Positions 15,980 through 16,285 of a stretch of 18,848 nucleotides of DNA are shown one piece after another. The DNA lies in the IMG/VR virus record IMGVR_UViG_3300009775_000008, positions 1 to 18,848 of that record, one strand, 5' to 3'. Every line of letters begins with the position of its first letter. Position 1 is the first letter of the stretch. The DNA comes from a virus. The translations under genes and the position numbers were made by a program. The notes below the pieces were generated by a model. That model was not told where the DNA came from, searched no databases, and worked only from the letters and a program-made list of their open reading frames with translations.

Positions 15980-16010
15980 AGTACTTTTATTTTATTTATC
16001 CCTCAATTTG

Positions 16011-16080
16011 CCCGACGGATGGGATTCGAACCCATGTTTCCGGCTGGTGCCGGAGTCCTAGGCCACTAGACGACCGAAGT
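16011..16080 (-). pseudogene. degenerate tRNA-Glu-like element A: lacks a 5' acceptor strand and has a 4-6-nt anticodon loop
   Basis: Minus read (TC) GTC TAGTGGCCTAG GAC T CCGGC ACCA GCCGG AAAC ATGGG TTCGAAT CCCAT CCGTCGG G. The D-arm and T-arm are canonical and Glu-like, like the 17588..17665 gene. The anticodon stem CCGGC/GCCGG encloses only ACCA. No CCGACGG partner for the 3' acceptor strand exists upstream. Confidence 0.35.
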
Positions 16081-16179
16081 TAACCCCGTAGATCTCCCTG
16101 CCAGGATTTCTTTAGAGACCACCCATATACCCCCTACTGATCTGGCAGGACCATTCAGGAATACGCCAGGTGGATTTAG

Positions 16180-16262
16180 TCGTGAGTACGGGGGTCGAAC
16201 CCGTGTTTCCGGCTTGAAAGGCCGACGTACTAAGCATACGCAACCAACTATACGAACCCACG
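16180..16262 (-). pseudogene. tRNA-Glu(UUC)-like element B with an 11-nt insertion in the D-loop; possibly nonfunctional
   Basis: Minus read CGTGGGT TC GTA TAGTTGG[TTGCGTATGCT]TAG TAC G TCGGC CTTTCAA GCCGG AAAC ACGGG TTCGACC CCCGT ACTCACG A. The acceptor is 7 bp (one G-U). The anticodon loop is C-U-UUC-A-A, and the T-arm is good. The D region is 28 nt instead of about 17. Removing the bracketed 11 nt restores a GTA/TAC D-stem. It lies immediately downstream of an intrinsic terminator. Confidence 0.35.
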
Positions 16263-16285
16263 AAAAAAGCTCGAATCTCGAGCTT
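16263..16285 (-). terminator. intrinsic terminator downstream of gene 16310..16732
   Basis: Stem aagctcga (16267-16274) / tcgagctt (16278-16285) with a 3-nt loop. On the minus strand it is followed by TTTTTTCG. Confidence 0.5.

What the first reader, a model, noticed from the sequence alone, without database searches (positions are those of the whole stretch)
16005..16265. Two degenerate tRNA-Glu-like elements separated by a structured spacer, just downstream of a terminator
Element B (16180..16262) has good acceptor, anticodon (UUC) and T arms but carries an 11-nt insertion (TTGCGTATGCT) inside the D-loop.

Element A (16011..16080) has Glu-type D and T arms and a 3' acceptor strand. Its anticodon loop is collapsed to ACCA between a CCGGC/GCCGG stem, and there is no 5' acceptor partner.

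A and B share the anticodon-stem, variable-loop and T-arm sequence (TCGGC/GCCGG AAAC A(C/T)GGG TTCGA...). Both therefore look like decayed copies of the intact tRNA-Glu at 17588..17665.

The 95-nt spacer between them can form an 8-bp stem, cctgccag/ctggcagg. They could be pseudogenes, tRNA-derived regulatory RNAs or decoys, or scars of homing-endonuclease-driven rearrangement in the tRNA cluster.
Basis: seen in the sequence. Interest (0 to 1): 0.55.

Follow-up and report, generated by a model that had tools for sequence, protein, structure and literature searches.

The report
Conserved phage tRNA-Glu mimic RNA module
The two odd tRNA-Glu-like elements and their spacer are not decaying gene copies but a conserved RNA module of a group of phages that encode a Ro60-like RNA-binding protein: an unusual tRNA-Glu, a two-hairpin RNA with matching loops, and a tRNA-shaped RNA with no anticodon, whose job is still unknown.

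Summary
All parts lie on the minus strand.

- **B (16262..16180)** is a tRNA-Glu(UUC) with a 19-nt D-loop.
- **The spacer** is 99 nt and structured.
- **A (16080..16011)** is tRNA-Glu-shaped, with a 4-nt cap where the anticodon loop should be.

The "decayed copies / scars" reading fails.

- The module recurs in about 20 independent viral and metagenome contigs from at least five lineages.
- The flanking SiaC-like protein is only 52-57% identical across the four lineages where it follows the module.
- Against a close relative, B is 100% and A 98.6% identical, while third codon positions of the flanking genes are 67-80% identical.
- In the proposed structure, 94.7% of pair cells are standard pairs, against 33-50% in slid controls. 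Eighteen pairs change on both sides.
- B's D-loop insert recurs in a second lineage with compensatory acceptor-stem changes, so it is not an assembly artefact.
- In relatives A has a full 7-bp acceptor stem, but its "anticodon" loop varies: ACCA, GGUGA, GUUGA, GUUGG, UGCGAAA. It cannot decode.
It is a covarying 6-bp pairing between the apical loops of two hairpins.

No Rfam family other than tRNA matches. In every sufficiently long contig the module lies upstream of a Ro60/TROVE gene on the same strand, 1.5 to 7.4 kb away.

My best guess is a tRNA-mimic noncoding RNA working with the phage Ro60, in the manner of a Y RNA. That guess is unproven.

The parts
16263..16284 (-). Terminator-like hairpin AGCUCGA-GAU-UCGAGCU plus a U-run. 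It ends the upstream SiaC-like gene (16310..16732) and abuts the 5' end of B.
   Evidence: Read directly from the sequence. Conserved in close relatives. Not called by the consensus scan.
16180..16262 (-). B: a variant tRNA-Glu(UUC). It has a 7-bp acceptor stem, a 4-bp D-stem, a 19-nt D-loop (16249..16231), a canonical anticodon arm (anticodon 16218..16216) and a canonical T arm. CCA is not encoded.
   Evidence: Rfam tRNA 32.4 bits. 100% identical in L010, against 67-80% at flanking third codon positions. L017/L018 carry the same insert with compensatory 3:70 and 5:68 acceptor changes. ARAGORN calls the L017 copy tRNA-Glu.
16232..16241 (-). The roughly 10-nt D-loop expansion GCGUAUGCUU. It looks like a tandem partial duplication of the 5' acceptor and D-stem strand: GGGUUCGUAUAG / UUGGUUGCGUAUGC.
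   Evidence: Sequence inspection. Present in all window-lineage contigs and in L017/L018. One variant has G to A inside the insert (L001).
16119..16173 (-). SL1: a long hairpin of three helices (7 bp, 5 bp and 6 bp). A conserved asymmetric internal loop separates the first two (UGGCG.A opposite U.UAUGG). The apical loop is 6 nt, CUGCCA (16148..16143).
   Evidence: Pair counts on the 10-sequence alignment: helix 1 is 98% paired and helix 2 is 88% paired, with 5 of 6 pairs changed on both sides. RNAalifold recovers it independently. A correlated C/G indel is seen in the basal helix.
16084..16117 (-). SL2: a short hairpin (4 bp plus 3-5 bp) with a 14-16-nt loop. The loop holds UGGCAG (16103..16098), which is complementary to the SL1 apical loop.
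   Evidence: The loop-loop helix is 100% paired in 10 sequences, with 3 of 6 pairs changed on both sides: CUGCCA/UGGCAG, UGGCCA/UGGCCA, CGGCCG/CGGCCG. The SL2 stems covary, for example AGCU/AGCU against UAAC/GUUA.
16011..16080 (-). A: an anticodon-less tRNA-Glu mimic. It keeps the Glu-type D arm (U13-G22, A46, 4-nt variable loop), a 5-bp 'anticodon' stem capped by ACCA (16048..16045), a canonical T arm and discriminator G. The acceptor stem is 4/7 paired in this lineage and 7/7 in others.
   Evidence: Rfam tRNA 32.7 bits; 48.8 bits for the L045 homologue. Compensatory changes occur in the acceptor, D, anticodon and T stems. The cap varies: ACCA, GGUGA, GUUGA, GUUGG, UGCGAAA. The 3' trailer CAA matches those of the phage's real tRNAs.
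15602..15979 (-). SiaC/DUF1987-family gene starting 31 nt after A. It is the usual downstream neighbour, but not an invariable one.
   Evidence: Pfam SiaC, E = 1.9e-27. It follows the module in most lineages, but not in L027 or L045.
6876..8576 (-). Ro60-like protein (TROVE plus a vWA-type C-terminus), the candidate protein partner. It is on the same strand, 7.4 kb downstream of A.
   Evidence: Pfam TROVE. The best PDB match is Thermus phage Ro60, 9KOP/9L5Y, E = 2e-18. It lies 1.5 to 4.8 kb downstream of the module in L013, L037, L019/L032 and L045.

Best explanation
Shown:
- 16262..16011(-) is a conserved RNA module under purifying selection, inside the tRNA island of a phage clade that encodes a Ro60/TROVE protein.
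- It has three parts. The first is B, a tRNA-Glu(UUC) whose D-loop is expanded to 19 nt. The second is a 99-nt RNA of two hairpins (SL1, SL2) whose loops are complementary over 6 nt and covary. The third is A, a tRNA-Glu-shaped RNA whose anticodon loop is replaced by a variable 4-7-nt cap, so it cannot decode.
- SL1-SL2-A is the constant unit. The upstream tRNA-Glu may be canonical, of the B type, or absent.

Inferred:
- The module is transcribed with the tRNA array and cut by the host tRNA-processing enzymes: RNase P at the tRNA 5' ends, then 3' trimming and CCA addition.
- In lineages where A has a 7-bp acceptor stem, this should release a roughly 100-nt SL1-SL2 RNA and a roughly 70-nt tRNA mimic.
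- In the window's lineage the weakened acceptor stem (4/7) may keep SL1-SL2-A as one RNA of about 170 nt.

Most likely role (about 30%): a Y-RNA-like partner of the phage Ro60. The tRNA-shaped domain would be the effector or stabilising module, as in bacterial YrlA/Yrn1. The invariant internal loop of SL1 (GGCG[U/C]A, near the 5' end) would be a candidate protein-binding site.
For: Conservation and selection:
- About 20 independent contigs carry the module.
- Five or more lineages share it. The flanking SiaC is only 52-57% identical across the four lineages where it follows the module.
- Against L010, B is 100%, A 98.6% and the spacer 94.9% identical, versus 67-80% at third codon positions.

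Structure:
- 94.7% of pair cells are paired, against 33-50% when partners are slid. Eighteen pairs change on both sides, against 1-6 when slid. 0 of 500 shuffles reach these values.
- RNAalifold recovers SL1 and SL2 independently.
- The loop-loop helix is 100% paired across three different sequences.

A is a mimic, not a tRNA: the loop differs in length and sequence between close relatives and never has U33.

Processing: A's trailer CAA matches the trailers of the phage's genuine tRNAs, which mostly lack an encoded CCA.

Link to Ro60:
- The module is upstream of the TROVE gene, on the same strand, in every contig long enough to show it: 1.5 kb in L013, 3.7 kb in L037, 4.5 kb in L019/L032, 4.8 kb in L045 and 7.4 kb in the window.
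- Bacterial and phage Y RNAs lie near Ro60 on the same strand, contain tRNA-like domains, and can be co-transcribed with tRNAs (PMC4201824).
- A phage Ro60 binds phage-encoded Y-like RNAs (PMC12135203).
Against: - No expression, processing or binding data exist.
- Gene order is conserved across this whole phage clade, so linkage to TROVE may be plain synteny.
- Some TROVE lineages lack the module. L046 has a clean deletion remnant. L048, L049, L052 and L053 have none within the flanks fetched (up to 10 kb).
- A different sRNA sits directly upstream of the TROVE gene in nearly every TROVE lineage examined (none was detected in L052), and by position it is the better Y-RNA candidate.
- A is not circularly permuted as YrlA is. 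There is no 5'/3' terminal stem and no exact GNCGAA or CGAA motif.
- Rfam reports nothing but tRNA.
- SL1 (about 18 bp) is much longer than SL2 (about 8 bp), so the loops may pair between molecules rather than within one.
Confidence: 0.45

Rival explanations
1. Processing cassette, in the manner of mascRNA. The functional product would be the SL1-SL2 RNA. The upstream tRNA-Glu and the tRNA-like A would serve mainly as RNase Z and RNase P handles that define its 5' and 3' ends. This would be independent of Ro60.
For: - SL1-SL2 is flanked within 2-6 nt by tRNA-type structures.
- A keeps exactly the features RNase P needs (acceptor and T arm) while its anticodon loop is free to vary.
- Loop complementarity covaries.
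- mascRNA and menRNA are precedents for a tRNA-like RNA with a shortened anticodon arm that defines the 3' end of an upstream RNA (PMC11693755).
Against: - L045 has no upstream tRNA.
- A also conserves Glu-specific D-arm features (U13-G22, A46, 4-nt variable loop) that RNase P does not need.
- In the window's lineage the acceptor stem is only 4/7 paired, which is poor for RNase P, yet A is still 98.6% conserved.
Confidence: 0.25
2. Decoy or titrant for a factor that binds tRNA-Glu. A would mimic the body of tRNA-Glu to occupy a host or phage protein that reads the D arm, elbow or acceptor rather than the anticodon. B's expanded D-loop would make the phage's own tRNA-Glu resistant to the same factor.
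For: - A retains the tRNA-Glu 'augmented D-helix' features in all lineages, including the divergent L045.
- The locus holds two or three tRNA-Glu-type genes in every lineage.
- From my own knowledge: phage tRNAs that evade tRNA-targeting defences are documented.
Against: - No tRNA-Glu-specific nuclease or toxin is identified here.
- Anticodon nucleases need the anticodon loop, which A lacks.
- This does not explain the conserved SL1-SL2 domain.
- Canonical tRNA-Glu(UUC) replaces B in several lineages.
Confidence: 0.15
3. Cis-acting leader of the downstream SiaC-like gene. The structured RNA would protect or regulate the mRNA that starts 31 nt after A.
For: A is followed within about 25-35 nt by the SiaC-like start codon and a conserved GAUAAAUAAA leader in most lineages.
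Against: - In L027 a different gene follows, and in L045 a tRNA-Glu(CUC) follows.
- L046 keeps SiaC but has lost the module.
- No known riboswitch or leader family matches.
Confidence: 0.08
4. Decaying tRNA-Glu pseudogenes or homing-endonuclease rearrangement scars, or an assembly artefact.
For: - Homing-endonuclease genes come and go next to the tRNAs between near-identical relatives.
- ARAGORN misses both elements in the window.
- A's acceptor stem is weakened in this lineage.
Against: - The elements are more conserved than neighbouring synonymous sites.
- Compensatory changes occur in all stems.
- The same insert is found in a second lineage and in many independent assemblies.
- The arrangement is retained across lineages with about 55% identical neighbouring proteins.
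Confidence: 0.04

Closest known systems
Bacterial and phage Y RNAs with tRNA-like domains (YrlA; D. radiodurans Yrn1), partners of Ro60/Rsr
   Same: - Encoded upstream of a Ro60/TROVE gene on the same strand.
- Contain a domain with tRNA D and T arms.
- Can be co-transcribed with tRNAs, and in M. smegmatis cut by RNase P and given CCA (PMC4201824).
- Yrn1 also has an 'anticodon arm' with a shortened loop.
   Different: - YrlA is circularly permuted (T arm, closed acceptor stem, D arm). Its ends form a long Ro-binding stem carrying GNCGAAN0-1G.
- Here the tRNA order is normal and the anticodon stem is capped.
- There is no terminal stem. The closest motif is GGCG[U/C]A, inside SL1.
- The distance to the TROVE gene is 1.5 to 7.4 kb, against at most 4 kb.
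mascRNA / menRNA (tRNA-like RNAs cut from MALAT1 and MEN-beta)
   Same: - tRNA-shaped, with a shortened anticodon arm.
- Lies directly 3' of a structured functional RNA.
- RNase P cleavage at its 5' end would create the 3' end of the upstream RNA (PMC11693755).
   Different: - Those are eukaryotic nuclear lncRNA products, while this is a phage tRNA array.
- The upstream element there is a triple helix, not two hairpins with matching loops.
- Processing here is only inferred.
Phage T4 stable RNAs C and D ('species 1 and 2') in the T4 tRNA cluster (from my own knowledge, not tested here)
   Same: Small stable RNAs of unknown function, encoded among phage tRNA genes and matured with them. The window's phage carries a T4-type gene, gp30.3.
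   Different: No sequence similarity was found in the phage collection. Their structures were not compared.
phi29 packaging RNA (pRNA)
   Same: Two loops within one RNA that are complementary and covary between related phages.
   Different: - pRNA loops pair between molecules to form a ring on the portal.
- The Rfam scans reported no match other than tRNA.
- There is no packaging-gene context.
- pRNA has no tRNA-like domain.

Membership tests
Elongator tRNA-Glu (applied to B) | 7-bp acceptor stem, 5-bp anticodon stem, 7-nt loop with U33, anticodon UUC and a purine at 37, T arm with GUUCGA | tested here: met
   Read from the sequence. The acceptor is 7/7, with compensatory 3:70 and 5:68 changes in L017. 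Rfam tRNA scores 32.4 bits, above the gathering score of 29.
Elongator tRNA-Glu (applied to B) | D-loop of about 7-11 nt | tested here: not met
   The D-loop is 19 nt (16249..16231). G18G19 are kept at the normal distance from the stem. ARAGORN fails in the window. The minimum-free-energy fold prefers a non-cloverleaf hairpin that uses the insert: -26.2 against -20.0 kcal/mol.
Elongator tRNA-Glu (applied to B) | Aminoacylation and use in decoding | not testable with these tools
   This needs charging assays or tRNA sequencing.
Decoding tRNA (applied to A) | 7-nt anticodon loop with U33 and a fixed anticodon | tested here: not met
   The loop is ACCA in the window, and GGUGA, GUUGA, GUUGG or UGCGAAA in relatives. 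U33 is never present. ARAGORN's calls for the homologues change from His to Gln to Ser on one Glu-type body.
tRNA-shaped RNA (applied to A) | Acceptor, D, anticodon and T stems maintained by compensatory change; D and T loops able to form the elbow | tested here: met
   Helices 5-8 are 87-100% paired, with changes on both sides in each. G18G19 and the UUCGA T-loop are invariant. In the window's lineage the acceptor is only 4/7 paired.
YrlA-type bacterial Y RNA | Within about 4 kb of a Ro60/TROVE gene, on the same strand | tested here: inconclusive
   The strand is always the same. The distance is 1.5 kb (L013) and 3.7 kb (L037), but 4.5 to 4.8 kb (L019, L045) and 7.4 kb in the window. The whole region is syntenic, so linkage is weak evidence.
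YrlA-type bacterial Y RNA | Circularly permuted tRNA-like domain (T arm, closed acceptor stem-loop, D arm) | tested here: not met
   A has the normal order D, anticodon stem, T, with open acceptor ends. B's T arm and A's D arm cannot share an acceptor-like stem (ACUCACG against ACUUCGG).
YrlA-type bacterial Y RNA | Stem formed by the 5' and 3' ends, carrying GNCGAAN0-1G (or CGAA) | tested here: not met
   There is no terminal stem and no exact motif. The nearest is the invariant GGCG[U/C]A in the SL1 internal loop. GGUCCGA occurs at 15100, outside the module, and only in the window's lineage.
YrlA-type bacterial Y RNA | Bound by Ro60/Rsr | not testable with these tools
   This needs a gel-shift or pull-down assay with the protein of 6876..8576.
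tRNA pseudogene / rearrangement scar | Neutral decay: no more conserved than silent sites, with uncompensated stem disruptions | tested here: not met
   Identity is 98.6-100% for A and B, against 67-80% at third codon positions. 94.7% of cells are paired, and 18 pairs are doubly changed.
tmRNA (one-piece or permuted two-piece) | tRNA-Ala-like acceptor and T domain plus a tag reading frame; detected by ARAGORN or Rfam | tested here: not met
   ARAGORN reports no tmRNA. Rfam reports none, even at E up to 10.
mascRNA-like processing signal | tRNA-like fold with a reduced anticodon arm, placed directly 3' of another structured RNA | tested here: met
   SL2 ends 3 nt before A's acceptor strand, or 1-2 nt in relatives.
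mascRNA-like processing signal | Cleavage by RNase P and RNase Z, and CCA addition in vivo | not testable with these tools
   The only indirect support is that A's trailer CAA resembles those of the phage's real tRNAs.

The most novel reading that the evidence does not exclude
SL1-SL2-A would be a new class of Y-like RNA. It would be a non-permuted, anticodon-less tRNA-Glu mimic fused to a loop-loop-paired double hairpin. This RNA would assemble with the phage's Ro60-like protein, and in some genomes with a phage-encoded major-vault-protein homologue, into a viral ribonucleoprotein that acts on host or phage RNA. The covarying, partly palindromic loops would drive multimerisation of the particle.
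Probability: 0.2. Interest if true: 0.8.

Novelty: new variant of a known kind. Interest (0 to 1): 0.6.

Why it matters
tRNA mimics are a recurring way for RNAs to borrow the cell's tRNA machinery. Bacterial Y RNAs are the main prokaryotic example, and what their tRNA-like domain does is still open.

This module offers three things:
- a compact, well-defined RNA family not matched by any Rfam family, with strong comparative support for its fold;
- a natural series of variants, with the upstream tRNA present or absent, the acceptor stem intact or weakened, and three different loop-loop sequences;
- a defined candidate protein partner in the same genome.

Together these make the tRNA-mimic question directly testable in a phage setting.

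It also shows that a tRNA with a 19-nt D-loop can be maintained by selection. Standard tRNA finders miss such genes.

Tried and rejected
Searches that found nothing:
- BLAST of the region and of the whole window against 50,697 phage records, in near and distant modes.
- Rfam, at gathering scores and at E up to 10. It reported only tRNA: no Y RNA, tmRNA, riboswitch, ribozyme or pRNA.
- BLAST of the spacer against E. coli genomes, to test for mimicry of a universal RNA.
- A relaxed invariant-position pattern in IMG/VR. It recovered only contigs already known.
- The same pattern in 185,579 species genomes. Absence from genomes is therefore not established.
- A covariance model of SL1-SL2 searched over all TROVE loci. 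It found no further diverged copies.
- The SiaC-based scan of IMG/VR. It returned only the same five contigs.

Ideas rejected:
- The single-sequence minimum-free-energy fold pairs B's T arm with the spacer's 3' end and with A's 3' strand. The L003-type variants break those pairs.
- A YrlA-style permuted reading (B's T arm, then the spacer as acceptor stem, then A's D arm). The strands are not complementary.
- In the window's lineage A's 3' strand could pair with CCUGGCG in SL1. This pairing is not conserved elsewhere.
- Word-level resemblance of the spacer to 5S rRNA (CCUGGCG, CUGCCAGG, GGUGGUC). The order is scrambled, and the loop words differ in other lineages.
- A pistol-ribozyme-like loop pseudoknot. 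There is no Rfam hit and the conserved nucleotides differ.

The Chen et al. 2014 supplementary alignments are not held, so I could not build a YrlA model.
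Full report
**1. What is at the coordinates**

All genes in the window run on the minus strand. Reading 16320..15960 on that strand gives the following order:
- the end of a SiaC/DUF1987-family gene (16310..16732);
- a terminator-like hairpin, AGCUCGA-GAU-UCGAGCU plus a U-run (16284..16263);
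- element B (16262..16180);
- a 99-nt spacer (16179..16081);
- element A (16080..16011);
- 31 nt later, a second SiaC-family gene (15979..15602; Pfam).

B has these features:
- a perfect 7-bp acceptor stem;
- a GUAU/GUAC D-stem;
- a canonical anticodon arm with loop CUUUCAA (anticodon UUC) and a canonical T arm;
- a 19-nt D-loop that keeps G18G19 and carries about 10 extra bases.

A has these features:
- a tRNA-Glu-type D arm, a 4-nt variable loop, a T arm and discriminator G;
- an anticodon stem, CCGGC/GCCGG, closed by ACCA;
- only 4 of 7 acceptor positions paired.

The Rfam tRNA model scores B at 32.4 bits and A at 32.7 bits, against a gathering score of 29. The five ordinary tRNAs of the window score 46-69 bits. 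ARAGORN finds neither element.

**2. The elements are not decaying**

No annotated phage record resembles the window. Exact-pattern scans nevertheless found the same arrangement in five IMG/VR contigs and twelve metagenome contigs (filtered). Homologues of the downstream SiaC protein led to three more contigs. A scan with the TROVE protein led to a still more divergent copy in L045.

These fall into at least five lineages:
- the window type;
- the L012/L023/L037 type;
- the L016/L017 type;
- the L014/L027 type;
- L045.

The neighbouring SiaC protein is only 52-57% identical across the four lineages where it follows the module. Within the window's own lineage I compared the window with L010:

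| Region | Identity to L010 |
|---|---|
| B | 100% |
| A | 98.6% |
| Spacer | 94.9% |
| Third codon positions, the two flanking genes | 67% and 80% |

That pattern indicates purifying selection, not decay.

**3. Element B**

In L012, L023, L016 and L027 the gene at B's position is an ordinary tRNA-Glu(UUC), which ARAGORN finds.

In L017/L018, a lineage whose spacer and A are of the L016 type, the gene is B with the same D-loop insert. Its acceptor stem there is CGCGGGU/ACCCGCG, against CGUGGGU/ACUCACG in the window. Position 3:70 has changed on both sides, and 5:68 has gone from G-U to G-C.

The insert is therefore neither an assembly error nor a recent lesion.

It looks like a tandem partial duplication of the 5' acceptor and D-stem strand: GGGUUCGUAUAG / UUGGUUGCGUAUGC. 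This explains why Rfam and ARAGORN (in L017) choose a register 13 nt downstream.

Nearest-neighbour folding prefers a long hairpin that uses the insert (-26.2 kcal/mol) over the cloverleaf (-20.0 kcal/mol). Whether B works in translation is therefore open. The phage also has a canonical tRNA-Glu(UUC) at 17665..17591.

**4. Element A**

In every other lineage A has a full 7-bp acceptor stem:
- UUUUCGG/CCGGAGA;
- UUUUCGA/UCGGAGA, with 7:66 changed on both sides;
- UUUUCGG/CCGAAGA.

The D, anticodon and T stems also show compensatory changes.

The Glu-type features are kept even in L045: U13-G22, A46 and the 4-nt variable loop.

The "anticodon" loop is not kept. It reads ACCA, GGUGA, GUUGA, GUUGG or UGCGAAA, and never has U33. 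As a result ARAGORN calls the homologues His, Gln or Ser on one and the same body. A is therefore a tRNA-shaped RNA that cannot decode.

Its 3' trailer, CAA, matches the trailers of the phage's real tRNAs (CAA, CGA, CUU, CUA). Most of those also lack an encoded CCA. This fits maturation by the same enzymes.

**5. The spacer**

I built a structural alignment of ten distinct sequences by hand and checked that it reproduces the raw sequences. The aligner kept it unchanged.

The model has these features:
- SL1 has helices of 7, 5 and 6 bp, an invariant asymmetric internal loop, and a 6-nt apical loop.
- SL2 has helices of 4 and 3-5 bp and a 14-16-nt loop.
- A 6-bp helix joins the two loops.

The pair counts for the whole model, including A, are as follows:

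| Measure | Observed | Partners slid by 1-3 columns |
|---|---|---|
| Pair cells forming a standard pair | 94.7% | 33-50% |
| Pairs changed on both sides | 18 | 1-6 |

None of 500 shuffles reaches the observed values. The loop-loop helix is paired in all ten sequences, although it reads CUGCCA/UGGCAG, UGGCCA/UGGCCA or CGGCCG/CGGCCG.

The window's lineage has one extra C-G pair in the basal helix, as a correlated indel. RNAalifold, run without my structure, returns SL1 and SL2. It also proposes a small local hairpin inside the SL2 loop that would compete with the loop-loop pairing.

There are two caveats:
- I made the alignment with the structure in mind.
- SL1 is much longer than SL2, so the loops may meet between molecules rather than within one.

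**6. Which part is constant**

L045 has SL1-SL2-A directly after an open reading frame, with no upstream tRNA, and a tRNA-Glu(CUC) follows it. L027 has a different gene downstream.

L046 has lost the module. There a tRNA-Glu is fused to the last roughly 25 nt of A, as expected from recombination between two T arms.

The unit is therefore SL1-SL2-A. B and the SiaC gene are usual neighbours but dispensable ones. A covariance model of SL1-SL2 finds exactly one copy per locus, and none in the other TROVE loci.

**7. Genomic setting**

The window looks like part of a large phage:
- a T4 gp30.3 homologue, NAD synthase and genes I read as dCMP deaminase and thioredoxin;
- homing-endonuclease-like genes that are present or absent between near-identical relatives;
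- many tRNAs, including one with anticodon CUA.

It also encodes a Ro60-like protein (6876..8576). This has a TROVE domain, and its best solved relative is the Ro60 of Thermus phage phiLo. There is also a major-vault-protein homologue (11214..13760).

In every contig that extends far enough, the module lies upstream of the TROVE gene on the same strand:

| Contig | Distance from module to TROVE gene |
|---|---|
| L013 | 1.5 kb |
| L037 | 3.7 kb |
| L019/L032 | 4.5 kb |
| L045 | 4.8 kb |
| Window | 7.4 kb |

In the window the vault-protein gene, a homing-endonuclease gene and a GC-rich non-coding stretch are inserted in between.

The literature supports a link of this kind:
- Bacterial and phage Y RNAs lie near Ro60 on the same strand, carry tRNA-like domains, and can be co-transcribed with tRNAs and cut by RNase P (PMC4201824).
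- The Thermus phage Ro60 binds two phage-encoded Y-like RNAs (PMC12135203).

**8. How it most likely works, and how sure I am**

It is shown that this is a conserved, structured RNA module under selection, containing a non-decoding tRNA-Glu mimic.

Co-transcription with the tRNA array and maturation by RNase P and the 3' tRNA pathway are inferred.

My preferred role is a Y-RNA-like partner of the phage Ro60, at roughly 30%. The tRNA-shaped domain would be the effector or stabilising module. The invariant SL1 internal loop (GGCG[U/C]A, near the 5' end, one base off the YrlA motif GNCGAA) would be a possible protein site.

The evidence against this role is as follows:
- The whole region is syntenic in this clade, so linkage is weak evidence.
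- Several TROVE lineages lack the module.
- A different sRNA, with its own promoter and terminator, sits directly upstream of the TROVE gene in nearly every TROVE lineage examined, though none was detected in L052. By position it is the better Y-RNA candidate. Known species do, however, have two or more Y RNAs, one tRNA-like and one a plain hairpin (PMC4201824).
- The defining YrlA topology and motif are not met.

The rivals are:
- a mascRNA-style processing cassette that releases SL1-SL2 (about 25%);
- a decoy for a factor that binds tRNA-Glu (about 15%);
- a leader of the SiaC gene (about 8%);
- pseudogenes or scars (under 5%).

**9. Comparison with what is known**

The module works most like a bacterial Y RNA with a tRNA-like domain, or like mascRNA. 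It is a member of neither family. Rfam 15 reports no match except tRNA for any homologue.

I file it as a new variant of a known kind, the tRNA-mimic noncoding RNA. Its SL1-SL2 domain has no described relative.

**10. Limits**

- All evidence is comparative. There are no expression or binding data.
- The host is not established. The closest cellular SiaC homologues are from Bacteroidota.
- The promoters I read by eye fit the Bacteroidota -7 motif TAnnTTTG, which I recall from memory.

Noticed in passing
window 15457..15478 (-), within 15226..15505: A 22-23-nt stretch, AACUAUAACGGUCCUAAGGUAG, is identical to 23S rRNA; it matches the annotated 23S genes of all 5,426 E. coli genomes. From memory this is the H69-H71 / I-CeuI-site region, and CACGAAUGGC about 20 nt further on also resembles 23S. 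The stretch lies in a 280-nt GC-rich piece that is absent from close relatives. It may be a mimic of an rRNA fragment or a scar of an intron and its flanking exon.
   Followed up: partly
window 14770..15500 (-): About 730 nt of GC-rich sequence has no long reading frame. It starts after a promoter-like TAtaTTTG and holds three terminator-like hairpins, so it probably encodes several small RNAs. It contains GGUCCGAAG (15100..15092), the Ro60-binding motif of vertebrate Y RNAs, but only in the window's own lineage. Rfam finds nothing.
   Followed up: partly
window about 9126..9216 (-), with promoter near 9240 and terminator 9065..9100: An sRNA with core GUUGUAGUAAGA...UUACUUCG...CYCUUUUC AAGUUUCUCAAC lies directly upstream of the TROVE gene in nearly every TROVE lineage examined (none was detected in L052), with some compensatory changes. 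A second copy lies elsewhere in the genome of several relatives. By position it is the best Y-RNA candidate, and it matches no Rfam family.
   Followed up: partly
window 11214..13760 (-): A phage gene encodes a major-vault-protein homologue (Pfam Vault_3 and MVP_shoulder). It lies a few kb from the TROVE gene in the window, L022, L046, L051, L054 and probably L056 (only a 31-residue edge match there), but is missing from otherwise near-identical relatives (L007, L019, L032). In eukaryotes a vault protein and a TROVE protein form one ribonucleoprotein.
   Followed up: partly
window 8625..8855 (-): A GC-rich insert of about 230 nt lies between a small reading frame and the TROVE start codon. It is flanked by the complementary ends AAAUCCGACC and GGUCGGAUUU, and is absent from L037 at the same place. 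It could be another structured RNA or a small mobile element.
   Followed up: no
window 9937..10008 (-): An ordinary-looking tRNA with anticodon CUA (an amber-suppressor type; ARAGORN labels it 'Pyl') is conserved upstream of the TROVE gene in most lineages. Its distance from the gene is about 0.6-2 kb in most of them and 5.4 kb in L048/L055. The reading frames in the window do not obviously need TAG recoding.
   Followed up: no
window 14072..14701 (-) and 16746..17348 (-): Two paralogous homing-endonuclease-like genes (zinc-finger N-terminus, NUMOD3-like motif) sit next to tRNA genes. Each is present or absent among relatives that are otherwise more than 95% identical.
   Followed up: partly
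window 17668..17967 (-): A 99-residue protein has weak matches to GNAT acetyltransferases, below Pfam's cut-offs. It is conserved just upstream of the tRNA-Leu and tRNA-Glu genes in most lineages.
   Followed up: no
L046 3368..3470: In this relative a tRNA-Glu(UUC) is followed directly by the last roughly 25 nt of an A-type element and the usual SiaC leader. This looks like deletion of SL1-SL2-A by recombination between two T arms.
   Followed up: partly
L027 1125..1150: The tRNA trailer word CUAAAU(A) is repeated three times between two tRNA-Glu genes. The same word follows the tRNA-Glu that precedes SL1 in all lineages. It may be a 3'-processing signal.
   Followed up: no
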